From a virus (lineage: Duplodnaviria; Caudoviricetes): DNA of 64,000 nt. Both the position numbers and the translations under genes were made by a program. Shown piece after piece: positions 15,092 to 27,028 of the stretch (within the stretch, counting starts at the first letter, position 1; each line of letters opens with the position of its first letter). The stretch is taken from the IMG/VR virus record IMGVR_UViG_3300021387_000484, positions 36,089-100,088 of that record; one strand, written 5' to 3'. The notes under the pieces are model-generated. The model did not search any database. It was given only the letters and a program-made list of their open reading frames with translations, and was not told where the DNA came from.

Positions 15092-17272
15092 TTACAACAT
15101 ATTTCTGAGGCTGAACGTGGGCTTCGCAAGTTCATTGAACGCATCAGAGCTGGCATCTACCATGTCATCATGCGCGCCCTGCGGAAAGCTCTCAAGCTGG
15201 TTGAAGAACATCTCATTCCAGTCCGCCGCAAGAACATACACGTTGCCGACCTGCCACTGCGCCGCAAAAGGGGTCGCCCTCTGTTCCTTGCTACCCGATA
15301 CGGGGTACGCCTTTACCGGGAACCCTGACAGCATCTTGATAAAGTTCTGCGCAAGAATCTTCCCCGCCGCGCCCGGGTCCTGAGGAATGCGAATCTTGCA
15401 CTTTAGTCCGTATTTCTTCCTGTCTGAGACAGCTGTGTTGTATATCAGCTTTTCCACTTCTGCGGCAGGCAGTCTCTTGTTGATAACGTCCATGACCACG
15501 ACCGACTTGTCTTTCCTGAGCCCCAAGAGGGCGCCAGCCGTGTAGTCGGGGTCGCCGCTCTCCTTGTCTGCCGTAGCCGCTATATCCCATGCCCGGCAGT
15601 ACAGCTCTAAATCGGATGGAAGGTCTAGGAGCACCTGAACCTGAGTCCTCTTGAAATACCTTCCTGCGGCAGACTTAATCTTCCAGTTGCCCTTTAAGAG
15701 CCGTTCGCGCTCGACCTCTGGAAGAGACTTTAAGGACGCCAGATACTGCGGGTTGACCTTTAAGAGCTCCTTATTGTCGTAGATACTCGACATGATGAAG
15801 GTCACTGACCTCGGCTCATCCTTTTCCTCTTCGGTCTTTAAGTCGAACCGTTCCCACAGCTCTTCCTTCGTATCAGCCCAGTTGATAATCCCGTCACGCC
15901 TGACGAACCACCGAATCTTCCCGCTCCGTTCTGGTATCGGATACCCTGTATCTTGGTCTATCCACCACTCGATGAACTTGGCTACCCACGAGTCCGCATC
16001 CGGGTTGCAGGTCGCCCTTATAAAAGGCTTTACGCCGCACGTGGAACGGTTACGGGACATCATGTAGAAGAATGTTGCTTCATCAAAATGAGTTAATTCA
16101 TCGAATCCTATTTCGCAAAGTTGTGAGCCCTGCCAGTCGTCGACACCGCTGTAATTCTCTATATGAGCAAAGGTCACCTTCGATATGGGGAGTCCGTCAT
16201 TATCATTGAATTCCCACGATGTGTTTACCTTCTTCATCTGAGCATTCGGTATCAAGCCGTAGATAGATTGCGCAGTGTCCCAGAGACCGCCGGGTGAGAA
16301 GACCTGTTTGAACGTTCTTCGGAAAATCGTGCAGTTGAACCCCTGTACACCCTTATACATAAGGGGTGTCAAGAGAAGCCCATGCGTGTTGTGGGTGACT
16401 ACAAAGTCCTTGGTCACATACAGCCCGTCAGGCTCGTCCACTCTGATGCACTGGCACTCCTCTTCCCCACAGGGTTTGATTGATAGGATTCTTCTATTTA
16501 GGTTTCCCCGGGTCCTGTCCTTCAGAACTGCCTTCATCCGTGGGAACAGCTCGGAATCATCCTTTGTCAGGATGTCGACCAGAAAGCCCCCTGAGGCTTC
16601 CCGCTTTATATAGGCCATGCCGCCTATCGACCAGACCAGCCACTGCATGTCTTTTGCAAGCTTTTCTGAACTGGTGTATAGCCCGCATCTGCCTTCTTCG
16701 GATATCCGCCCGCCCTTATCCATCAGTCCCTGTATGAGCGATACACGGTCTTGTGGCGGGGCGTATTTGTACCGGACAGGAATGTGCTTTGCCTTGTCCT
16801 CAACGCACTCATCCGCAAGATATGTCCCTAGGGCGTATGGTATCAATGAACCCGCCGGTCCCCTGTTTTCGAACTGAACAGCCCCGCAAAGGGGGGTTTG
16901 ATAATCTTTACCCTGAGCCAGCCCGTCGATGATGGCACTTGTGGTCATCACCTTTCCGTTTACGAACCACAGGTGGTCTTTTGTACACCTCGTCTGCGCC
17001 CCGTCCTCGAACAGCACTCTGTAGACAGCCTTTTTGCCCTGAGGGAAGGTCTGCACGACCGTGGTCTGCCTTCCCGTCGCCGATATGACCTTGTCACCGG
17101 CCTTTATGGACCCCATCGGCCTGAATCCAAACGGTGTAAGAACGGGTTCGCTAAGCGGCTGTGCCTTTCCCCCGCCCGCCGAACCGCCGAATATGCAGAT
17201 ATCAGCCTCTGTCGCAAGGAAGTCCCACTGTGGTCCCGGCTGTGGCCTAATGGTAATCTTATTCTTCGCCAT
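15092..17272 (-). CDS. terL: Terminase large subunit containing an intein
   Basis: GGSAGGGK(T) Walker A, IGFDELTHF Walker B, RATCNP, RAWDIAA, HDDMVDA nuclease motifs. Confidence 0.95.
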   Translation of the reverse strand: MAKNKITIRPQPGPQWDFLATEADICIFGGSAGGGKAQPLSEPVLTPFGFRPMGSIKAGDKVISATGRQTTVVQTFPQGKKAVYRVLFEDGAQTRCTKDHLWFVNGKVMTTSAIIDGLAQGKDYQTPLCGAVQFENRGPAGSLIPYALGTYLADECVEDKAKHIPVRYKYAPPQDRVSLIQGLMDKGGRISEEGRCGLYTSSEKLAKDMQWLVWSIGGMAYIKREASGGFLVDILTKDDSELFPRMKAVLKDRTRGNLNRRILSIKPCGEEECQCIRVDEPDGLYVTKDFVVTHNTHGLLLTPLMYKGVQGFNCTIFRRTFKQVFSPGGLWDTAQSIYGLIPNAQMKKVNTSWEFNDNDGLPISKVTFAHIENYSGVDDWQGSQLCEIGFDELTHFDEATFFYMMSRNRSTCGVKPFIRATCNPDADSWVAKFIEWWIDQDTGYPIPERSGKIRWFVRRDGIINWADTKEELWERFDLKTEEEKDEPRSVTFIMSSIYDNKELLKVNPQYLASLKSLPEVERERLLKGNWKIKSAAGRYFKRTQVQVLLDLPSDLELYCRAWDIAATADKESGDPDYTAGALLGLRKDKSVVVMDVINKRLPAAEVEKLIYNTAVSDRKKYGLKCKIRIPQDPGAAGKILAQNFIKMLSGFPVKAYPVSGSKEQRATPFAAQWQVGNVYVLAADWNEMFFNQLESFPQGAHDDMVDASSDAFNELAKPTFSLRNML
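16388..17164 (-). mobile_element. Class-3-type intein (259 aa) with degenerate LAGLIDADG, inserted in TerL Walker A
   Basis: Begins AQPL, block B TKDHLW, block F CQCI, ends VVTHN|T; LAGLIDADG motifs degraded (YLADEC, LMDKGG). Confidence 0.9.
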
Positions 17273-19159: not shown

Positions 19160-19487
19160 CTGTGTCCCCCTTATCGGTCAGGGGACCCAGCTCTGACGCC
19201 ATCTTCCGCGACAGGTCATCGTAGTCCGCATTTTTGCGGACGCTGTCCCTGTCTATCTCAAGGATACCTTTGAGGTCATCCCACCCGGCCTCCTCCTTAT
19301 TGGCGATGTCAAGGGCCTTCTTTGCCATGAGCACCGCCTTTGTGAGGTGGTAGGGGGAAAAGTCAAGGATGTCTGTCTTGCCGTCATCCTCGACTCTCAC
19401 CTGATACCCTTTCCCGAACCTTGCGTTCATCTCGATATAAGCCTTCAACCTTTTCCTCCTCCCTGTTGTATAATCGAGTTTTCCCAT
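19137..19487 (-). CDS. Hypothetical protein, probably leaderless mRNA
   Basis: TTGACC-16-TATAAT promoter (19494-19521) ends 7 nt before ATG at 19487; no RBS. Confidence 0.6.
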   Translation of the reverse strand: MGKLDYTTGRRKRLKAYIEMNARFGKGYQVRVEDDGKTDILDFSPYHLTKAVLMAKKALDIANKEEAGWDDLKGILEIDRDSVRKNADYDDLSRKMASELGPLTDKGDTDEKHTKT

Positions 19488-19530
19488 ACCAGAATTATAC
19501 AACAGGGAAGGGCAAGGTCAATTATCCCCT

Positions 19531-19884
19531 TTATACGGCTTTCTTTTTTTTGCGGTACTCTGCCTGCTGGAGGCGGATGCGCTCCCGGTTCTTCTTGTAC
19601 CACTCCTGTTTTCTTTTTCTCTCGGCTTCCTTGTCCTTCTTGGCGTAGTCAGCTTTGCGCTTGGCCTTGAGCTCTTCAGGGTCCTTATTGGCCACCTGCC
19701 TTCTGTACTTCTCAACCATCTTCTTGTGCTCTTTTACCTTCTCGGGAAAGAGCAGTTCTTCAACCATATCCTCGATGAGGTAGTCCTCGTAGGTGAGGCC
19801 AGCCTTGTCAACTTCTTCGTCAAAACGGCGAAGCTCCTCAAGTTCTTCAGCTGTAAATCTTCCCATTCCAAACCTCCGCATCAT
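19531..19884 (-). CDS. Basic coiled-coil hypothetical protein
   Basis: 117-aa ORF; promoter TTGCAT-17-TATACT at 19912-19940. Confidence 0.65.
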   Translation of the reverse strand: MMRRFGMGRFTAEELEELRRFDEEVDKAGLTYEDYLIEDMVEELLFPEKVKEHKKMVEKYRRQVANKDPEELKAKRKADYAKKDKEAERKRKQEWYKKNRERIRLQQAEYRKKKKAV

Positions 19885-20004
19885 CTAACAATCGCCTCAT
19901 CCGACTATTAGAGTATAGCATACATTGGTTCGAAATGCAAGGGTAATATATGCGTTTCTAAATGCGTTACAATATATTGTTACGCTGTTTAAATTCGTTT
20001 CCGT

Positions 20005-21075
20005 TTATTTTAGGTTGTTTTCTGTCATCCCGCCGGGGCACCTTCTGAGCGTGAAATCGCGCCCTATATACGCCCCTTCACAGCCGTCAACAAGGAAGGT
20101 TGTGTACTCGCAGATGCCGTTGTCGACGACCGCCGCAACCTTCTTTGCCGGGTGGAAGCCGTCGCTCACGACCTTCTTTGCAAGGCACCTGTCCTTTTTT
20201 CTGGGGATGTTGAACAGCTGAGCCGTGTCGGCTATGCGGATATCCACCACGTAGGCCCTGCGGCACTTCTTCCTTGTGCCGTCCTTGAACGTACAGTAGG
20301 GGATATAGCTCCGTATCTTGGCTATCCCGCCTATGGACCGGATGAGCCACTGGACATCCCTCGCAAGGCGTCTCGAAGTGGACGTGTAGGTGCAGTGCCC
20401 TGACTGCCCGACATAGCCGTCCGTATCCATGAGCCCCTGTATGAGCTCCATGCGGTCCTTTAAGGAAGCGTGCTTGTATTCAGTCGGCACGTACTTTTTG
20501 TGGGACCTGCAAAGGAGCCCCTTTTCGGAGAGCCACGCCTTTTCCTTTGAAAACTGCCTGAGCCCAAAGACGGGCGTCCTGCTGTCGTTTGCCTGATACC
20601 GCGTCAGGGTGTAGCCGTCCTGACGCACCCTTCCAAAGAGCTCCATATCCCTCTTTATGAGCCGTATGGTCTCTTTTCTCAGGCACCCGTCACCAAGGAG
20701 CGCTCCAAGGGTATAGGGCTTTATGGTAAGCTCATATTCCCGGTCGAACTCCACCTGTCCGCCCTGCTGAACGGTAATGGATTTTCCCCGTGCCATCACT
20801 TCCTGTATCTGCTGAGTGGTCCTGACCTTCAGCACGGGATTTTTGCCCATGGTGCGCGACAGCCACGGCTCGTCGGCAGTGCATACCACGTAGGAGCCGT
20901 CCGTAAATTCCATCCTGTAGGTCTGAAGTGTCTGCGCATGGACGCCGACCGCTTTTGCCGTTTGACCGTCCGGGGTCCGAAGCACAGTGCCTTCGCGGAC
21001 CTTGCCCCTCTTGATAAAGCCTGTCGGCGTCAGCACAGGCTCTCTTTCGGGCATGATGTTTTTTCTGGTGCTCAC
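20005..21075 (-). CDS. Free-standing intein-derived LAGLIDADG homing endonuclease with degenerate Hint domain
   Basis: PVLTPTGF Hint start, LGALLGDG and LIQGLMDTDG intact; block B lacks His (TADEPW); no terminal HN. Confidence 0.85.
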   Translation of the reverse strand: MSTRKNIMPEREPVLTPTGFIKRGKVREGTVLRTPDGQTAKAVGVHAQTLQTYRMEFTDGSYVVCTADEPWLSRTMGKNPVLKVRTTQQIQEVMARGKSITVQQGGQVEFDREYELTIKPYTLGALLGDGCLRKETIRLIKRDMELFGRVRQDGYTLTRYQANDSRTPVFGLRQFSKEKAWLSEKGLLCRSHKKYVPTEYKHASLKDRMELIQGLMDTDGYVGQSGHCTYTSTSRRLARDVQWLIRSIGGIAKIRSYIPYCTFKDGTRKKCRRAYVVDIRIADTAQLFNIPRKKDRCLAKKVVSDGFHPAKKVAAVVDNGICEYTTFLVDGCEGAYIGRDFTLRRCPGGMTENNLK

Positions 21076-22517
21076 TTCTTCACCAGTTCTCCCGCGCCGT
21101 ATTTGGAGAGATAGGCCTTCATGGCAGTGATAAAGTCGGGCATTTTCTCGTGCCAGAAGCCGTTCACGGCCTCCTGCACCTGCCCGTTCTTATCGCCCAG
21201 CGCTTTCTCCCTCTCCTTGTTGTTCCCATAGACGCCGAACATGGTCTCTATCGCAAGGTCAGAAACGGACTTTGCGGGGGCCTTCTTTTCATGAGCTGTA
21301 AATCCGTCATCCCTGTCTGAATCAGAAGTCGTGCCGTCCTCTTCAATGACGAAGGCTATCTCCTCATTGATGCACTGGAGTATCCCATCCCACGGGTAGT
21401 CGTAGTAGAGCTTTAAGTGGCTCTCTCCCCTTCCGTAGGTCTCGTCGTACTCGCCTTTTTGCTTCTGGTCGCCGACCTTGCCGCCAAGCGCCGTGCCCTT
21501 CTCGTTGATTGAAAATTCCATCAGGACATCGGGTTCGGCAGACAGACACATAGCGGTGTGCCCGTTGCCAGTCTTGTTATCATGGTACAGGTAACTGTCC
21601 CCCATCTGGGCGATGAACTTCATGCTCCGCCAGACGAAGTTGCCGGTCCCGACCATGCACTTCTTCATGTTGCCCGTGTAAGTCGCGCCGCCACAGGAGA
21701 TGCCAGCCGCCTCGTAAGCGTTGATGATGGCAGAAGAACAGTCCCTGTCCCCGCCTTTGATAATGTACTTCCTGCCGTAGATATCTATCTCTTCCGTACC
21801 GGTCCCCTGCCTGCCCGCCATGTCCTGCGTATACCCGTGCGCATTGTGGATGCACAGGTGCTTCATGATAAGGGCGGCCACTTCCTTTTTGGTGACGACC
21901 CTGCGCCCGGGCTTGGGGCTTACGGGTATCGAACTGCCAAAGTCCGTGTACCACTCGTTCTCATCTACATACCCGCTTATGCCGGGACATGTGGCGCGGC
22001 TTGTGAACTGCCAGCCGTCGGTCCATATTGTGGGCTTGTAGGCCATGTCGGGCTTTCCGTCGTTTTTCCCGTAGGCGGCAATCCACCTGCCTACGGTCAT
22101 CCCCTTCAACTGCTGTTCAAAGGCCCACTGCCACGAATAAACACCGCCGTTCGGGAAGGCTTCCTGCCACATCTGTGCGGCCTTCTTCCAAAAGGCGGTG
22201 TTCTTTCTCTCTTCAAGGTCAAGCCAGAAGCGCTCCACCTTGTAGCCCGCGCACATGCGCTTTACATGGGCTATCTCCGACTTTATCTGCTTCTCGCTGT
22301 TGGCGTGGGAGTAGATATAGACTTCAAAGTAGATGCCAAGCCTTGTGCACTCCCTCATGTTGTAGGCGGCATACAGGTCATCCTGAGACTTTATATCGTC
22401 ACCGTACCCTATGCGGATAATGGCGCCCGATATATACTCCTTGACCTTTTCCCAGTATATCTTGCCCTGATGCTCAGAGACATCGAGCACCCTCTTTATA
22501 TCAGCCATCCTCTTCAC
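21072..22517 (-). CDS. Endolysin: GH25 muramidase + CHAP/NlpC-like amidase + CW_7-like repeat
   Basis: LDVSEHQG, WLDLE, WQFTS..VDEN; DRDCSS..GHTAM; GVYGNNKEREKALG. Confidence 0.88.
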   Translation of the reverse strand: MKRMADIKRVLDVSEHQGKIYWEKVKEYISGAIIRIGYGDDIKSQDDLYAAYNMRECTRLGIYFEVYIYSHANSEKQIKSEIAHVKRMCAGYKVERFWLDLEERKNTAFWKKAAQMWQEAFPNGGVYSWQWAFEQQLKGMTVGRWIAAYGKNDGKPDMAYKPTIWTDGWQFTSRATCPGISGYVDENEWYTDFGSSIPVSPKPGRRVVTKKEVAALIMKHLCIHNAHGYTQDMAGRQGTGTEEIDIYGRKYIIKGGDRDCSSAIINAYEAAGISCGGATYTGNMKKCMVGTGNFVWRSMKFIAQMGDSYLYHDNKTGNGHTAMCLSAEPDVLMEFSINEKGTALGGKVGDQKQKGEYDETYGRGESHLKLYYDYPWDGILQCINEEIAFVIEEDGTTSDSDRDDGFTAHEKKAPAKSVSDLAIETMFGVYGNNKEREKALGDKNGQVQEAVNGFWHEKMPDFITAMKAYLSKYGAGELVKK

Positions 22518-22899
22518 CCCCGTTGTCGGACAGGTTGTCGGACAGGGTATCCATCGTGATGACCGCCGCCTCTATGAGGGCTTCCAGCTCTTCCTTTGTG
22601 ATTTTCACTCCCTTGGCGGCACAGATGCGCATGATAAAGTTGTAGACGTATTTCTTCCGCTGGCTTCCGTCCGGGTCAATCTTCCTTGCGCGGTTGTACA
22701 TCTGCTCTGCCGCATACACAGCGGAATAGACCCACTCCCTGACCTTCTCCATCTGTTCATTTTCCGTCTTAGTCTCAATCCACTTCCTGAGTGCGGGAAC
22801 CACGAAGCCCGCCATAAAGAGAATCGCTATTTTCACAGCAAGTTCAAGTATCTGCATCCTTATCATATCTTTTTCCACCCCTGTTTTCGCTATAAACAA
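22501..22899 (-). CDS. Holin (LL-H-like)
   Basis: One N-terminal TM helix, AVYAAEQ..LIEAAV; adjacent to lysin. Confidence 0.75.
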   Translation of the reverse strand: MFIAKTGVEKDMIRMQILELAVKIAILFMAGFVVPALRKWIETKTENEQMEKVREWVYSAVYAAEQMYNRARKIDPDGSQRKKYVYNFIMRICAAKGVKITKEELEALIEAAVITMDTLSDNLSDNGGEEDG

Positions 22900-22923
22900 A
22901 GCTTTCTTCTCTATAAGTTCTCT

Positions 22924-23328
22924 TTAAATGAACTTGTTCTCCGCTTTCACCCGCTGGTAAGTATCCTTGATATGGGCTATCGCGGCGGTCGCCTTGTTGT
23001 TCTCGTATTTCGGGTTGTCCTTGCAGTAACGCGAGTAGTAGTTCATGTCGTCGAGCACCTGATTGAAGGATTCCTCAGAATGGTCAATCCCGCGCCTAAG
23101 CTCATCGTCGAATGATAAAATGTTCCGCCTAGCGTCGTCGGCATTCTCCTTGTCGAGCCGAAGCTCAATGCCCAGTATCCTCTCGCCGATAGTCTTTAGC
23201 GCGCGTGATATCTCGTTGTTCTTTTCTTCTTTTGCATCCTTTCTGGTTATCAGGAACTGGACAAACCCGATAAGCCCGCCGCCGATAAGCCCGCCTATTA
23301 TCGTTTCAAAAATCTCCAGTCCTCTCAC
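22924..23328 (-). CDS. Membrane-anchored lysis-module protein (holin-associated)
   Basis: N-terminal TM helix plus coiled coil; position in lysis cassette. Confidence 0.6.
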   Translation of the reverse strand: MRGLEIFETIIGGLIGGGLIGFVQFLITRKDAKEEKNNEISRALKTIGERILGIELRLDKENADDARRNILSFDDELRRGIDHSEESFNQVLDDMNYYSRYCKDNPKYENNKATAAIAHIKDTYQRVKAENKFI

Positions 23329-23342
23329 ATCCCATCACCCCC

Positions 23343-25121
23343 TTATGCGTTTATGACCTTGTGCAGGTTCCCCTTGGAACAGGACAGCTCCATGACCCCG
23401 TTCTTACAGTCAATGAAAATGTCCCCGTTCTCGGCGTTCCTTGCCACGACCGCGCCGACCGCTTCCAGCCGCTTTCTGGTCGTGCCCCTGCCAGACCGTT
23501 CAAGGTGGTGGTAGTTGGAGAAAGCTATCTTGGGACGGGTGGCCGCACAGATAGTGGCGTTGCAGGCGTTCGCGTCCCCGTGCCACTGCGTCTTGAAGAT
23601 ATCCGCCCTGAGATTCGTGACTGCTTTAATGAGCAGGTTGTTGCCCTCATTTTGGAGGTCGCCCGCCGAATGAAAAACGACGGAGCCGTCAAGCGTAAAC
23701 CTCGTCACGATGGACTGGTTGTTGACGAAGTGGTGGTCGTCGTGCTCTGAGAGCGCGGACGCCGGTGCCTGCCAGATGCAGTCGCACCGTATCTTACCCG
23801 CTGTAAATCCCTTTCCCGCCTTGAGGTAGGTACATGCCGCCCCGTACTTTGCCGCCTTCTTTTCCTGAGACCTTATGGCGTTGCCGTAGGTCTTTTGGTA
23901 CTTGTCAAGCTGTTCAGTGTCGGGAAGGTAAATGGCTTTTACCTTGAACGTCTCAAACACATCTGTGAGCGCCCCGTAGTGGTCGCCGTGGGCGTGGGAT
24001 ATGACGACTGCGTCTATGGTCTTCACCCCGGCTTCTTTGAGCTTCTTTACGGTCTTACCGGCCTTCTTTGCCGTGTCGATAAGGACCACGTGCTCAATCG
24101 TCTTGTCATCAGCTCCGTACTGGATGATTGCCGTGGCGTCCCCGAACTGTGTCTCGTCGCCCTCAAAGAACCAGATGCCCCATACACGGATGCGGGGATG
24201 GTCGGAAGGCTTGCTGTCCTCTTTATTAGTCAGGATATCGTTTACACGCCCCTGTACCTTGGCTGGGTCGTAGCCGTTGAACGTGAGCAGAAGCTCCCTG
24301 ACCTCCCCGTTTCCGTACTTTGCGTTTATCACGTCATTCGCGGCTTCCGTAAGGCTCTTCCCAGAGAGCTTTGCGATTGCGTTTATCTCTGCCTGAACCT
24401 CCACGCTCCATGCCCCCAAGCGTTCCTTCCGGTAGTCATCCTTACCGGCAAAGCCCGCTATCGTCATGACAGCCATGTCCCGTATGACCGCCTTCTGGTC
24501 CCCCCAGACGCGGTCTACCTCGTTCTGGATAGATGTACGGTTATCGCTCCCAAAGACGCTCAGACACTTCGTGCGCGCCGTTCCTGAGCCGTATACACTC
24601 AGCATGCAGTCGGACGCCGCGATAACGACCTGAAGGTCGTCCATCTTCACCATCTTTTCGTACTTGGGGCGCACCCTGCCGATGATGGTCCTGCCAGAGC
24701 GTTTCCTTCTCTTGCAGGTATCCTTTGATACCTGCTTGTAGTTGCCGCACAGGTTCACGTTTGAACCCAAGGCAAGCTCCGTGTGGTTGGGCTTCTTGTT
24801 CTTGTCCCCGTAGACGACAATGTCGCCGGGAAGGATGTCCCCGGAGCCGCTCTTCCAGATGCCGAGCTTTTCGGCATTCTTTTTCAATGTCCCGGACGCC
24901 TGCGCGTAACCGCCGACAAGGTCGATGCCCCCTGCGTCATACAGGATGGCCATGACCGTTTCCGTGCACCACTCGTCTGTCATCTTTGCGCCGTGCCCCT
25001 TGGCATTTAAGGTGGCGATGACATCTTTGTGGGCAGTAGGCGACCCGTCATATCTGGCGGCGGCTTTGAGCACGTTCCATACTGTGCATTTTGATGCCAT
25101 GTTTTCCTCCTTAATCGCCAC
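23343..25121 (-). CDS. CHAP-like + CW_7-like repeats + metallo-beta-lactamase-fold hydrolase (ComEC/Pce-like)
   Basis: WCTETV..HTEL; YGNGEVR; LIDT, SHAHGDH, NNQSIV, AGD, WHG. Confidence 0.8.
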   Translation of the reverse strand: MAIKEENMASKCTVWNVLKAAARYDGSPTAHKDVIATLNAKGHGAKMTDEWCTETVMAILYDAGGIDLVGGYAQASGTLKKNAEKLGIWKSGSGDILPGDIVVYGDKNKKPNHTELALGSNVNLCGNYKQVSKDTCKRRKRSGRTIIGRVRPKYEKMVKMDDLQVVIAASDCMLSVYGSGTARTKCLSVFGSDNRTSIQNEVDRVWGDQKAVIRDMAVMTIAGFAGKDDYRKERLGAWSVEVQAEINAIAKLSGKSLTEAANDVINAKYGNGEVRELLLTFNGYDPAKVQGRVNDILTNKEDSKPSDHPRIRVWGIWFFEGDETQFGDATAIIQYGADDKTIEHVVLIDTAKKAGKTVKKLKEAGVKTIDAVVISHAHGDHYGALTDVFETFKVKAIYLPDTEQLDKYQKTYGNAIRSQEKKAAKYGAACTYLKAGKGFTAGKIRCDCIWQAPASALSEHDDHHFVNNQSIVTRFTLDGSVVFHSAGDLQNEGNNLLIKAVTNLRADIFKTQWHGDANACNATICAATRPKIAFSNYHHLERSGRGTTRKRLEAVGAVVARNAENGDIFIDCKNGVMELSCSKGNLHKVINA

Positions 25122-25896
25122 AAAGGTCCGTGTGCTTTGATATGTAGAGCCCCTGCCAGCCGTGGAGCTTGTAGTAGGCCTTGGCCTTCACGATGCCAGA
25201 CGCGGATTTCACGTACTCGATACCCCGGACATACAGGCCATTCTTTTTCGCCCAGTCCATGTAGGCGGTCCGGTACTTCCTCTCCCCTGAGGACTGAGCA
25301 CAGAAGTCCTCGTACAGGCACCCTTCCTGATTGATAGTCTTGATATATGGCTTTCCGATGCCGTCCTTGAACATCTTCTGGACAAGAAGGTCCGCGCCGT
25401 TTGGCATGACGATAAGCCCCACGTCCTGCACGATGCGGCGGATGACATCAGTCATGGCAAGGTAGACTGCTGTGGCGGAAGGAGGCTTTTTCATCAGTTC
25501 CCCCTTCTTCTGCTTCTCAGCAAAGCCCTCCTTTGCCATCCAGTAGATATCACCGTTGTCGAAGTAGAGTCCGATAGCCCCCTTTGCCTTCTTGGCTTTT
25601 GCCTCGTCGATAAGGTGCTGTTTCCACTTATCGGAAGTCGGGTCTATCCAGTACTCGCCGGGCCAGACGTCGTATTCGCACACCCTCAGGCTTTTGAAGG
25701 TGTTATAGTAGGGCCTCTCCCTCTCAAGCGCGCCCGCGTTCAGGTAGTCGTAGACAAAGACGCCACGGTCCACCGCCGCCCTGACTGTCGCGGACGCTAT
25801 GCCTTCGGAGTCTATGACCGCAAGTCCCTGTTTTTTTATGTTCTTGAGGACTTTTGCAACGTATTCCTGTTCAAAGCAGTATTTAAGTTCTCCCAT
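25111..25896 (-). CDS. GH114-like endo-alpha-1,4-polygalactosaminidase
   Basis: YLNAGALE, WPGEYWID, GLYFDNGDIY, MPNG, NQE motifs. Confidence 0.7.
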   Translation of the reverse strand: MGELKYCFEQEYVAKVLKNIKKQGLAVIDSEGIASATVRAAVDRGVFVYDYLNAGALERERPYYNTFKSLRVCEYDVWPGEYWIDPTSDKWKQHLIDEAKAKKAKGAIGLYFDNGDIYWMAKEGFAEKQKKGELMKKPPSATAVYLAMTDVIRRIVQDVGLIVMPNGADLLVQKMFKDGIGKPYIKTINQEGCLYEDFCAQSSGERKYRTAYMDWAKKNGLYVRGIEYVKSASGIVKAKAYYKLHGWQGLYISKHTDLCGD

Positions 25897-25924
25897 GGTG
25901 TCTTTCCTCCTTTCCCTGCGCATA

Positions 25925-25955
25925 TAAAAAAGACACCCGGTTAGGGTGCCTTTTG
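25925..25955. terminator. Hairpin/terminator at the start of the late (lysis) block
   Basis: AAAAGACACCC..GGGTGCCTTTT. Confidence 0.55.
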
Positions 25956-26060
25956 TGTCTTTTGATTTTTTCCGACAGCATACCTTGTACCACCGTTTTG
26001 GTGGGACTTACAAGGAATCTTACGGAAATCTATAGAATTTTATGGAACAATTCGAGCGTT

Positions 26061-26804
26061 TTATTCGCTTTTATCTATGAGTTTCAGATATCTCCACCTC
26101 ACTGACCCCGGGGTCCTGCCGATTTCCAGACCTATGGAAGAGAAAGTCCCTCCGTCCCCCATCTTCTCAAGTATGAGAGAATCCTCGCTTTCGGTATACG
26201 GCTCCCCCGCTTCCTTCCACTCCCCGCGATACATCTTAAAGCGCAGAACGTCCTCATATGGCGTAGCTACCTTCTCCTTCCGTTTCTTTCCAGACGCGGG
26301 CAGTATTGGCTTTGCCAGCCTCCTTGCATCCACCTTCAGCTTTGCGCTCACGGGCTTTTGTGCCGCCCCCATGTCCCCAATGGGAATCCATCCAGAGCTC
26401 CACCCCTCTGCCAATGGGGTCGCCACGACTGAGCCCTCTACCTGCGGCCCCCTGTACCAGTTTCCGCTCGTGTACTGGCCATAGGTGAGCCCCGAATCCT
26501 TTACGGCCCGCATCTTCTCCCTTTTCGCGTCGTCAGTCTCCCTGCGCCTCTCCACGGCGTACTTTTTTTCATTTGCCTTTTCCTTCACGCGGCAGTCCTC
26601 ACACAGGGTGCGGTTGCTGTTGACGCTCACGCGGTAGACCCTTCCGCACTTTAAGCACATGATTTCCTTGGTCCTTATATGGTGGTCCTTCGAGTGATAC
26701 TGCCTCATGCATTGCCGTGAACAGAATTTTTTGTTCGGCACCGTCCGCACGAACTCTGCGCCACAACACAGACACTTCGCTGTCTCCTTCCCTTCTTTAT
26801 CCAT
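26061..26804 (-). CDS. Zinc-ribbon protein with C-terminal Myb-like HTH
   Basis: Several CxxC pairs; YTESED..IGRTPGSVRWR. Confidence 0.6.
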   Translation of the reverse strand: MDKEGKETAKCLCCGAEFVRTVPNKKFCSRQCMRQYHSKDHHIRTKEIMCLKCGRVYRVSVNSNRTLCEDCRVKEKANEKKYAVERRRETDDAKREKMRAVKDSGLTYGQYTSGNWYRGPQVEGSVVATPLAEGWSSGWIPIGDMGAAQKPVSAKLKVDARRLAKPILPASGKKRKEKVATPYEDVLRFKMYRGEWKEAGEPYTESEDSLILEKMGDGGTFSSIGLEIGRTPGSVRWRYLKLIDKSE

Positions 26805-27028
26805 CGCTCACTCTCCGCTTACAAGGCGCAGTCCGCACCCAGAGCAGACCGTCCCCTTCTCCACTGCTTCATCCAGTTCCCACGGGAACGCGTAGTTCAA
26901 GAAGCAGTGATAATAGACCCCTTCGTCCTCCAAGAACCTGCAATCCGCGCACCTGTCTGGCTTCTCCATGACATAGATATCTTTCGGCATCACTTTCCGC
27001 ATAGTTTTTACCCCCTTTTTGGTGGGAA

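What the first reader, a model, noticed from the sequence alone, without database searches (positions are those of the whole stretch)
20005..21075. Free-standing, splicing-dead relative of the TerL intein with an intact nuclease: possible homing in trans
This ORF closely parallels the intein (PVLTP.GF; KYVPTEYKHAS..LIQGLMDTDG vs KHIPVRYKYAP..LIQGLMDKGG; LARDVQWLIRSIGG vs LAKDMQWLVWSIGG). It lacks exteins, the block-B His and the terminal HN, but keeps both catalytic Asp motifs. The complementary losses suggest a division of labour: the free nuclease cuts intein-less terL of competing phages and mobilises the intein about 3 kb away. Domestication, as with yeast HO, is an alternative.
Basis: partly seen in the sequence, partly recalled or inferred. 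Interest (0 to 1): 0.72.

Follow-up and report, generated by a model that had tools for sequence, protein, structure and literature searches.

The report
Free-standing nuclease derived from terminase intein
An uncultured 100-kb gut phage carries a stand-alone gene that was once a self-splicing intein of the DNA-packaging enzyme TerL: it has lost every splicing residue but kept an intact DNA-cutting domain, which makes it a viral counterpart of the yeast HO/WHO endonucleases.

Summary
ORF 20005-21075(-) is an extein-less Hint + two-motif LAGLIDADG protein. The AF2 model has pLDDT 92, and its best PDB matches are PI-SceI, TliVMA and PI-PfuI. It lacks the block-B His, the class-3 block-F Cys and the terminal Thr-His-Asn, but keeps both catalytic Asp.

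The TerL intein in the same genome (16388-17164) is splice-competent by sequence. Its nuclease has lost a whole subdomain and one catalytic Asp.

New findings:
- The ORF belongs to a rare monophyletic clade of six free-standing clusters nested inside TerL P-loop inteins.
- Its sister is the full-length TerL intein of the closest sampled relative phage, not the resident intein (AU p=0.0007).
- In the free clade, conservation has moved from the splicing blocks to the nuclease.

Trans-homing or competitor cutting at intein-less terL is the best reading, but it is untested. A near-identical strain very probably pairs the same free gene with an intact intein, so "complementary loss" is not obligatory. 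The gene lies 2.8 kb from the site.

The scan had noted this same stretch before, in this genome only.

The parts
20005..21075 (-). Free-standing Hint + LAGLIDADG gene (356 aa). The GTG start overlaps the endolysin stop (GTGA). An internal ATG (Met8, 21052-21054) matches the start of relatives P0004 and P0005 and the Met at position 2 of P0113-type inteins.
20761..21051 (-). N-terminal lobe of the Hint fold (res 9-105). The block-B remnant VCTADEPWL lies at 20860-20886: His is replaced by Glu, Trp is kept.
20176..20733 (-). LAGLIDADG nuclease domain with two subdomains (res 115-300). It is the most conserved part in the free clade (64% mean pairwise identity).
20683..20715 (-). LAGLIDADG motif 1, YTLGALLGDGC, catalytic D129. 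G128, D129 and G130 are invariant in all six free clusters.
20416..20445 (-). LAGLIDADG motif 2, LIQGLMDTDG, catalytic D219. G214 to G220 (GLMDTDG) are invariant in all six free clusters.
20041..20148 (-). C-terminal lobe of the Hint fold (res 310-345). Blocks F and G are degenerate: F4 Cys is Tyr and T-H-N is R-R-C. It is the least conserved part in the free clade (34%), whereas it is 66-69% conserved in true TerL inteins.
19912..19940 (-). Promoter-like TTGCAT-17-TATACT just downstream of the free gene. It is conserved in phage L084. Homology with L084 resumes here, so the free gene is the last gene of a ~7-kb block that L084 lacks at this position.
21072..22517 (-). GH25 + endolysin-like-domain lysin. 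The free gene is probably co-transcribed and translationally coupled with it.
15092..17272 (-). terL (726 aa): N-extein 17165-17272, intein 16388-17164, C-extein 15092-16387.
16388..17164 (-). Resident class-3-type intein (259 aa) inserted GGGK|A...THN|T in the Walker A loop. The splicing residues are kept and the nuclease is decayed. Motif remnants: LGTYLADEC at 16805-16831 and LIQGLMDKGG at 16709-16738.

Best explanation
The gene encodes a stand-alone LAGLIDADG endonuclease that descends from a class-3 intein of the TerL Walker-A site. It cannot splice and has nothing to splice.

Shown by computation here:
- The Hint fold is kept, but its catalytic residues are gone.
- The nuclease is intact and is the most conserved part across a monophyletic free-standing clade.
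- All of the clade's nearest relatives are inteins of the same terL site.

Inferred:
- The gene is expressed from the lysis operon, by coupling to the endolysin.
- The protein still recognises the ancestral target, the uninterrupted Walker-A coding stretch of terL.
- The phage's own terL is immune because an intein splits that site.
- In mixed infections the enzyme cuts intein-less terL of related phages. The break is either lethal to the competitor or is repaired from the resident genome.
- Repair copies in the nuclease-dead intein (homing in trans) together with linked DNA, sometimes including the nuclease gene 2.8-3.9 kb away.
- The intein then doubles as the immunity allele for the nuclease.

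Confidence that it is an intein-derived, functional, free-standing nuclease is about 0.85. Confidence in the terL target and trans-homing mechanism is about 0.45, and that is the figure given.
For: - Fold: the AF2 model has pLDDT 92.2 and pTM 0.91. Top PDB matches are PI-SceI, TliVMA, PI-PfuI, I-DmoI and the class-3 DnaB intein.
- Annotation: Pfam hits LAGLIDADG_3 only. The best PHROG hits are the intein segments of 'terminase large subunit' families.
- Relatives: the best longer homologues are all TerL proteins with an intein at GGGK|A (49, 44, 42 and 40% identity). Other P-loop ATPase inteins come only after them, at about 30%.
- Trees: the free clade is supported 100/99 and is sister to P0113 (100/100). 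The quick 75-row tree puts it inside an 18-row TerL-intein clade at SH-aLRT 96.
- Selection shift: within the free clade identity is Hint-N 42, nuclease 64 and Hint-C 34%. Within TerL inteins it is 49, 50 and 66%.
- Target retention is plausible: the putative DNA-binding strands are 59% identical within the free clade and 50% to P0113. They are only 38-40% identical among TerL inteins that all share one site.
- Catalytic Asp are kept 6/6, block-B His and terminal Asn are lost 6/6.
- Self-protection: the window's terL site is occupied by an intein. That intein's nuclease lacks subdomain 1 and one Asp.
- Targets exist: 32 related IMG/VR loci carry uninterrupted I/V-Y-G-G-[AS]-[AG]-G-[GS]-G-K-[ST] sites.
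- Co-occurrence: the free gene and the decayed intein are together in contigs of four runs from four studies. In the 4-7% divergent strain X9 both are at least as conserved as their flanks.
- Precedent: T4 MobE mobilises the defunct I-TevIII intron in trans and depends on upstream transcription (PMC2790892).
Against: - No cleavage or cross data exist. The target is inferred from ancestry alone.
- The free clade is only 49-53% identical to its nearest intein, so its specificity could have moved.
- The gene is separated from the terL site by five genes (2.8 kb to its 3' end, 3.9 kb to its start). Known collaborative or trans-homing nucleases sit next to their target, so drive of the nuclease gene itself would be weak.
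- P0390 (98.9% identical) very probably lies on the same 127,225-bp contig as P0114, a TerL with a full-length intact intein. The free nuclease is therefore not tied to a decayed intein.
- All observed co-occurrence comes from one phage species.
- The terL status of the genomes holding P0002-P0006 is unknown.
Confidence: 0.45

Rival explanations
1. It is a free-standing homing endonuclease that has acquired a new target close to its own insertion point, at the junction between the lysis block and the downstream operon. It spreads by ordinary intron-less homing and has no functional link to terL or its intein.
For: - It is the last gene of a ~7-kb block that the closest relative L084 lacks at this position.
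- Homology with L084 resumes about 65 nt after its stop codon, at a conserved promoter. This is the kind of exchange boundary where phage nuclease genes are reported to sit (PMC10448857).
- It is absent from 28 related viral records and one Clostridia MAG, and from L084 apart from the intein. The distribution is sporadic, like a mobile gene.
- Typical phage free-standing HEGs cut within a few hundred bases of themselves.
Against: - The flanks resemble the terL target no more than shuffled sequence does, so there is no trace of ectopic homing.
- No empty-site allele with the same lysis block was found, and no contig in four runs skips the gene.
- The DNA-binding strands stay closer to the P0113 TerL intein than bona fide same-site TerL inteins are to one another.
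Confidence: 0.25
2. It is a domesticated nuclease that works for the phage, as HO does for yeast. Possible roles are attack on host or competitor DNA, or a part in late DNA processing. It would be inherited vertically and would no longer home.
For: - The clade is old (48-58% identity among six clusters on ~15-150-kb contigs). That is about as divergent as TerL itself among these phages, and the nuclease is under strong conservation.
- The gene sits inside an operon and is coupled to the endolysin.
- Its DNA-binding strands are relatively more conserved than in selfish inteins.
Against: - It is rare: six 90% clusters among about 5.8 billion clusters. No further member turned up in IMG/VR, JGI metagenomes or GTDB genomes.
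- It is missing from the closest relative and from 28 other related viral records plus one MAG, so it is dispensable.
- It has no added domain comparable to the HO zinc finger.
Confidence: 0.2
3. It is an inert relic of an intein that landed outside a gene, is decaying, and has no activity.
For: All splicing residues have decayed. No promoter of its own was found.
Against: - The reading frame is intact in the window, in all 23 members read from the six clusters, and in the near-identical variants P0389 and P0390.
- Both catalytic Asp and 90-odd other positions are invariant across 48-58% divergent members.
- The fold is predicted with high confidence.
- In strain X9 it has diverged less (4.2%) than most neighbouring genes (5-6.7%).
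Confidence: 0.07

Closest known systems
Yeast HO endonuclease and WHO elements (Coughlan et al. 2020, PMC7282813)
   Same: Both are stand-alone genes derived from a Hint + LAGLIDADG intein. Both have no exteins, have lost motif G, do not splice and keep the nuclease. WHO elements cut an essential host gene nearby and spread by gene conversion, with the resident allele resistant.
   Different: The origin is independent: a bacterial-virus class-3 TerL intein rather than the fungal VMA1 intein. There is no C-terminal zinc-finger domain. Here resistance would come from an intein that splits the target, not from a replaced gene end. The gene is 2.8 kb from the presumed target, not adjacent. Activity is untested.
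Phage T4 MobE / I-TevIII trans-homing (Wilson & Edgell 2009, PMC2790892), and collaborative homing of free-standing HEGs with HEG-less introns (discussed in PMC10448857)
   Same: A free-standing nuclease gene lies near an essential gene that is interrupted by a self-splicing element with a dead or absent nuclease. The nuclease gene is promoterless and depends on upstream transcription. The stagnant element is proposed to be carried along by repair.
   Different: Those cases involve group I introns and HNH or GIY-YIG type nucleases unrelated to the intron's own enzyme. Here the passenger is an intein and the free nuclease is itself a former intein of the same site. The known cases are adjacent to the target, whereas this one is five genes away.
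Class-3 LAGLIDADG inteins of phage TerL (actinobacteriophage survey, bioRxiv 10.1101/2025.01.02.630785); PI-SceI as structural model
   Same: The insertion-site family is the same (nucleotide-binding loop of TerL). The Ala1 / Trp-Cys-Thr class-3 signature is present in the resident intein and in the sister intein P0113. The bipartite fold is the same.
   Different: The free gene fails every splicing criterion and is not inserted in any gene. That survey describes mini-inteins and odd nuclease arrangements inside inteins, but no extein-less derivative.

Membership tests
Intein (class 3) | In-frame insertion in a host protein, with N- and C-exteins | tested here: not met
   The ORF starts in a GTGA overlap with the endolysin stop, in another frame, and ends 11 codons after the Hint fold. 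Nothing TerL-like flanks it.
Intein (class 3) | Block B T-x-x-H and the class-3 Trp(B12)-Cys(F4)-Thr(G5) triad | tested here: not met
   His is replaced by Glu, F4 Cys by Tyr and G5 Thr by Arg. Only the Trp is kept. The resident intein and P0113 keep all of them.
Intein (class 3) | Terminal His-Asn followed by a Ser/Thr/Cys +1 nucleophile | tested here: not met
   The sequence reads R-R-C-P where inteins have T-H-N-S/T. Asn is lost in 6/6 free clusters.
Intein (class 3) | Hint fold | tested here: met
   The AF2 model has pLDDT above 90 over both lobes. Foldseek hits PI-SceI, TliVMA and the class-3 DnaB intein 6bs8.
LAGLIDADG homing endonuclease (monomeric, two motifs) | Two LAGLIDADG helices, each ending in a catalytic acidic residue | tested here: met
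   LLGDG (D129) and MDTDG (D219), invariant in the clade. Pfam LAGLIDADG_3, E 1e-7.
LAGLIDADG homing endonuclease (monomeric, two motifs) | Two alpha-beta-beta-alpha-beta-beta-alpha subdomains forming a DNA saddle | tested here: met
   DSSP on the model. Structural matches to I-DmoI and to the PI-SceI nuclease domain.
LAGLIDADG homing endonuclease (monomeric, two motifs) | Site-specific double-strand cleavage and super-Mendelian spread | not testable with these tools
   Only the sporadic distribution could be seen.
HO/WHO-type intein-derived free-standing endonucleases | Intein-like region without exteins and without motif G | tested here: met
HO/WHO-type intein-derived free-standing endonucleases | C-terminal zinc-finger domain fused to the intein-like region | tested here: not met
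   There are only 11 residues after the Hint fold and no Cys-x-x-Cys repeats.
HO/WHO-type intein-derived free-standing endonucleases | Descent from the fungal VMA1 (VDE) intein lineage | tested here: not met
   It is nested in phage TerL P-loop inteins. The resemblance is convergent.
Trans-/collaborative homing pair | A free-standing nuclease gene close to a gene interrupted by a splicing element that lacks a working nuclease | tested here: met
   The decayed intein lies 2.8 kb downstream in the same orientation. The separation is larger than in the known pairs.
Trans-/collaborative homing pair | The free nuclease cuts the empty insertion site of that element | not testable with these tools
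   Inferred only from descent from same-site inteins.
Trans-/collaborative homing pair | The two elements are consistently co-inherited | tested here: inconclusive
   They are together in four runs of four studies, but all from one species. A sister strain probably pairs the free gene with an intact intein. Contexts of the other clade members could not be obtained.

The most novel reading that the evidence does not exclude
The free nuclease and the terL intein form a two-part 'poison and immunity' drive in a virus. The extein-less ex-intein cuts any terL whose Walker-A site is uninterrupted. An intein in that site, even one whose own nuclease is dead, then becomes a selected immunity allele. 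Precise intein loss would be punished and competitors converted or killed. This would take the intein out of the usual invade-decay-loss cycle. [quoted passage not shown]
Probability: 0.3. Interest if true: 0.8.

Novelty: new variant of a known kind. Interest (0 to 1): 0.62.

Why it matters
Intein-to-free-gene transitions are documented only for yeast HO/WHO. My full-text searches found no prokaryotic or viral case.

- This clade shows the same transition in phages. The donor lineage (TerL Walker-A inteins), a living sister intein and a resident decayed intein all occur in one small group of related genomes.
- That makes the direction of evolution and the fate of specificity directly testable with a simple cleavage assay.
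- If the enzyme still cuts terL, it would be the first intein example of homing in trans. It would also explain how nuclease-dead inteins persist.
- Practically, PHROG-based annotation would mislabel the gene as a terminase.
- Roughly seven other extein-less Hint-LAGLIDADG ORFs of other lineages in the hit lists suggest an overlooked class.

Tried and rejected
The contigs encoding P0002-P0006, P0389, P0390 and P0114 could not be read. Co-occurrence of the free gene with terL inteins outside this species therefore stayed untested. The same-contig inference for P0390 and P0114 rests only on identical longest-contig length (127,225), sources and contig count.
They returned only TerL and other P-loop inteins.
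- The flanks of the free gene were compared with the two terL target flanks. The best ungapped match was 9/15 in both, no better than shuffles. There is no sign of ectopic homing into a look-alike site.
- Promoter and terminator scans of 19400-22700 gave nothing above the shuffle expectation.
- GC3 is 0.72 for the free gene, 0.74 for the endolysin and 0.64-0.65 for terL. The difference is too small within a 0.62-0.74 range to argue for foreign origin.
- A duplicate of the resident intein was considered and rejected by the tree and the AU test. Caveat: the tested group was named after a first tree had been seen.
- A frameshifted C-terminal Hint extension of the endolysin, with hedgehog-like autoprocessing, was considered and rejected because every nucleophile is missing.
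- A truncated gene call was considered and rejected. The record is 99% complete, and the same ORF is assembled in four independent runs.
- The third protein search, on the centre of the decayed intein, found only P0361 (98% identical, the same phage species). The age of the decayed allele could not be dated.
- In the trees the row called winFREE_P0001 is the cluster representative. It differs from the window's protein by one residue (R149S). P0389 is identical to the window's protein.

Full report
**What is there**

The window is the right-hand 64 kb of a 100,088-bp IMG/VR virus record judged 99% complete. All genes around the finding are on the minus strand. ORF 20005-21075(-) encodes 356 aa. 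Its GTG start overlaps the TGA stop of a GH25 + endolysin-like-domain lysin (21072-22517), and an ATG follows seven codons later.

BLASTP against the 726-aa TerL (15092-17272) gives two collinear matches over the whole intein, E 7e-21 and 3e-15 at 29% identity. Pfam sees only LAGLIDADG_3. The best PHROG hits are the intein-bearing stretches of three 'terminase large subunit' families.

**Anatomy**

An AlphaFold2 model built on 54 homologues has mean pLDDT 92.2 and pTM 0.91. Foldseek against the PDB returns:
- the bipartite intein nucleases PI-SceI, TliVMA, PhoVMA and PI-PfuI;
- then I-DmoI for the nuclease part;
- then the class-3 DnaB intein for the Hint part.

The Hint fold is therefore kept, but its chemistry is gone:
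- Block B reads T-A-D-E-P-W, so the His is lost and the Trp kept.
- The class-3 block-F Cys is Tyr.
- The terminal T-H-N-S/T of the inteins is R-R-C-P.

Both LAGLIDADG helices end in the canonical acidic residue: LLGDG (D129) and MDTDG (D219).

**The resident intein**

TerL is split GGGK|A...V-T-H-N|T in its Walker A loop by a 259-aa intein (16388-17164). The intein has Ala1, T-K-D-H-L-W in block B, C-Q-C-I in block F and T-H-N at the end. That is the class-3 signature, so it should splice. Splicing is inferred; terL is essential.

Its nuclease is wrecked:
- Motif 1 reads ADE.
- Motif 2 reads DKGG, so a catalytic Asp is lost.
- About 59 alignment columns are absent, which is all of subdomain 1 after the first helix.
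- A further 13 columns of the subdomain-2 hairpin are absent.

P0114 is an 816-aa TerL whose exteins are about 99% identical to the window's. The first ~20 and last ~27 intein residues are also identical. P0114 carries a full-length intein with both motifs intact, while the centre is only 45-59% identical to the window's. The decayed centre has no other relative except P0361, the same phage species at 98%.

In strain X9 the intein is no more diverged (43/1055) than its surroundings. The two intein alleles therefore look like old variants reshuffled by recombination inside the intein, not a recent decay.

**Relatives and phylogeny**

Among about 5.8 billion protein clusters, only five other clusters of similar length (328-357 aa, 48-58% identity) resemble the ORF closely. 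All 23 sequences read from the six clusters start at the Hint N-terminus and stop a few residues after it. None has His-Asn.

Among longer proteins the best hits are all TerL with an intein at the same GGGK|A site:
- P0113, 49%;
- P0115, 44%;
- P0114, 42%;
- a large 806-aa group, 40%.

Inteins of PhoH, DnaB, helicases and ClpX follow at about 30%.

P0113 is the TerL of L084, the closest sampled relative phage. Its C-extein is 83% identical to the window's and the record is 98.6 kb. L084 has no free copy anywhere in its record.

The trees:
- The quick IQ-TREE of 75 inteins puts the free clade (SH-aLRT 99) beside P0113 (99), inside an 18-row TerL-intein clade (96). The window's intein pairs with P0114 (98) on a long branch (0.92 against 0.065).
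- The careful tree of 28 rows gives the free clade 100/99 and free + P0113 100/100.
- Forcing the free clade together with the resident intein type costs 67 log-likelihood units (AU p=0.0007). The caveat is that this group was named after the first tree.

So the free gene arose once, from the P0113-type TerL intein lineage, and not by duplication of the resident intein. P0113-type inteins begin A-M-P-L-S-E-P-V-L-T. The Met at intein position 2 coincides with the start of P0004 and P0005 and with Met8 of the window's ORF. This suggests how a relocated intein segment could acquire a start codon.

**Selection**

Mean pairwise identity by region:

| Region | Within free clade | Within TerL inteins |
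|---|---|---|
| Hint N-lobe | 42% | 49-50% |
| Nuclease | 64% | 50-53% |
| Hint C-lobe | 34% | 66-69% |
| Putative DNA-binding strands | 59% | 38-40% |

Constraint has thus moved from the splicing blocks to the nuclease. The DNA-binding strands of the free clade are 50% identical to P0113. The free clade is therefore closer to P0113 in those strands than genuine same-site TerL inteins are to each other. That is the main argument that the terL target may be retained. Both catalytic Asp are invariant. This rules out an inert relic for practical purposes.

**Distribution and population**

- The gene is absent from 28 related viral records and one Clostridia MAG. Only TerL inteins matched there.
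- It is absent from IMG/VR, JGI metagenomes and GTDB genomes apart from the window's own record.
- 32 related loci have an uninterrupted Walker-A site, conserved at the protein level and 63-83% identical at the DNA level in the 30 nt upstream. Potential targets are therefore plentiful.
- Contigs of four runs from four studies of animal gut metagenomes hold this phage with both the free gene and the decayed intein. No contig skips either. In the most divergent strain, X9, the free gene shows 41 differences in 972 nt, against 5-6.7% in neighbouring pieces.
- P0390, a 98.9%-identical copy, has the same longest-contig length (127,225), sources and contig count as P0114. The free gene therefore very probably also lives with an intact intein.

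**Context**

Relative to L084, the window has about 7 kb between the homologues of g27029 and g19531. This block holds a Zn-ribbon protein, a GH114-like enzyme, a CHAP-MBL enzyme, a holin, the lysin and the free gene. Homology resumes about 65 nt after the free gene's stop, at a conserved TTGCAT-17-TATACT promoter-like site. The free gene thus sits at a boundary of genetic exchange, as reported for phage nuclease genes (PMC10448857). It has no detectable promoter of its own, like T4 mobE (PMC2790892).

**Mechanism**

The best reading (confidence 0.45) is a free-standing nuclease that still cuts uninterrupted terL Walker-A DNA. The resident intein provides immunity. The outcome in mixed infections is competitor damage or gene conversion that carries the nuclease-dead intein, and sometimes the nuclease gene, into the other genome.

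Shown by computation here:
- the ancestry;
- the intact and conserved active site;
- the occupied self-site;
- the existence of empty sites in relatives.

Inferred:
- expression;
- target;
- cleavage;
- conversion.

Points against:
- the 2.8-3.9 kb separation;
- 49-53% divergence from the nearest intein;
- the probable coexistence with an intact intein.

Rivals are a re-targeted free-standing HEG homing at its own locus (0.25), domestication (0.2) and a relic (0.07).

**Comparison and novelty**

It works like yeast HO/WHO: intein-derived, no exteins, motif G lost, no splicing (PMC7282813). If the terL target holds, it also works like the T4 MobE/I-TevIII trans-homing pair (PMC2790892). It is not a member of either family. 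It has an independent viral origin, no zinc finger, and its passenger would be an intein rather than an intron. It fails every intein membership test except the fold.

Full-text searches found no described prokaryotic or viral extein-less intein derivative. The recent actinophage intein survey describes class-3 TerL inteins and unusual nuclease arrangements, but not this one. I rate it a new variant of a known kind.

**Limits**

The one computation that could have tested co-occurrence across the clade was therefore not possible.

Noticed in passing
window 16076-16128 (terL C-extein, Walker B 'EIGFDEL'): There is a second, polymorphic insertion site in terL. Run X5 has 526 extra letters here; this corresponds to P0361, an 899-aa TerL with a 173-aa mini-intein and Gly replaced by Cys at +1. 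Run X6 has 1077 extra letters, and X9 has loose ends at 16105 and 16113. The window's allele is empty at this site.
   Followed up: partly
window 16388-17164 versus P0114: The intein is mosaic. The exteins and the first ~20 and last ~27 intein residues are identical to a TerL that carries a full-length intact intein, while the centre is only 45-59% identical and has three deletions. This points to recombination breakpoints inside the intein, with decayed and intact alleles circulating in one phage species.
   Followed up: partly
window 17887/17888: Strain X5 has 1530 extra letters upstream of terS. The relative L084 carries three extra genes at the corresponding place (a 156-aa protein, a 486-aa protein and a 255-aa protein; not annotated here).
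   Followed up: no
window 19965-27000 versus L084 3234-3489: A ~7-kb block (Zn-ribbon protein, GH114-like enzyme, CHAP-MBL enzyme, holin, GH25 lysin, free nuclease) lies between genes that are adjacent in L084. L084 has no homologue of the window's lysin anywhere in its record.
   Followed up: partly
proteins P0063, P0070, P0073, P0098, P0108, P0335, P0353: These are other Hint + LAGLIDADG proteins of 346-398 aa from different lineages (25-33% identity). They also start at the Hint N-terminus and end just after it, mostly without His-Asn. They may be independent extein-less derivatives, though some could be truncated gene calls.
   Followed up: no
proteins P0116, P0122, P0126, P0132, P0137, P0145 (1013-1183 aa): TerL proteins of the '806-aa' group occur in longer forms with an extra Hom_end_hint domain, meaning two or three inteins in one terL. 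TerL is an intein hot spot in these gut phages.
   Followed up: no
window 20005-21075: PHROG scanning labels the free gene 'terminase large subunit', because the family profiles include intein segments. Automatic annotation would give this phage a false second terminase.
   Followed up: yes
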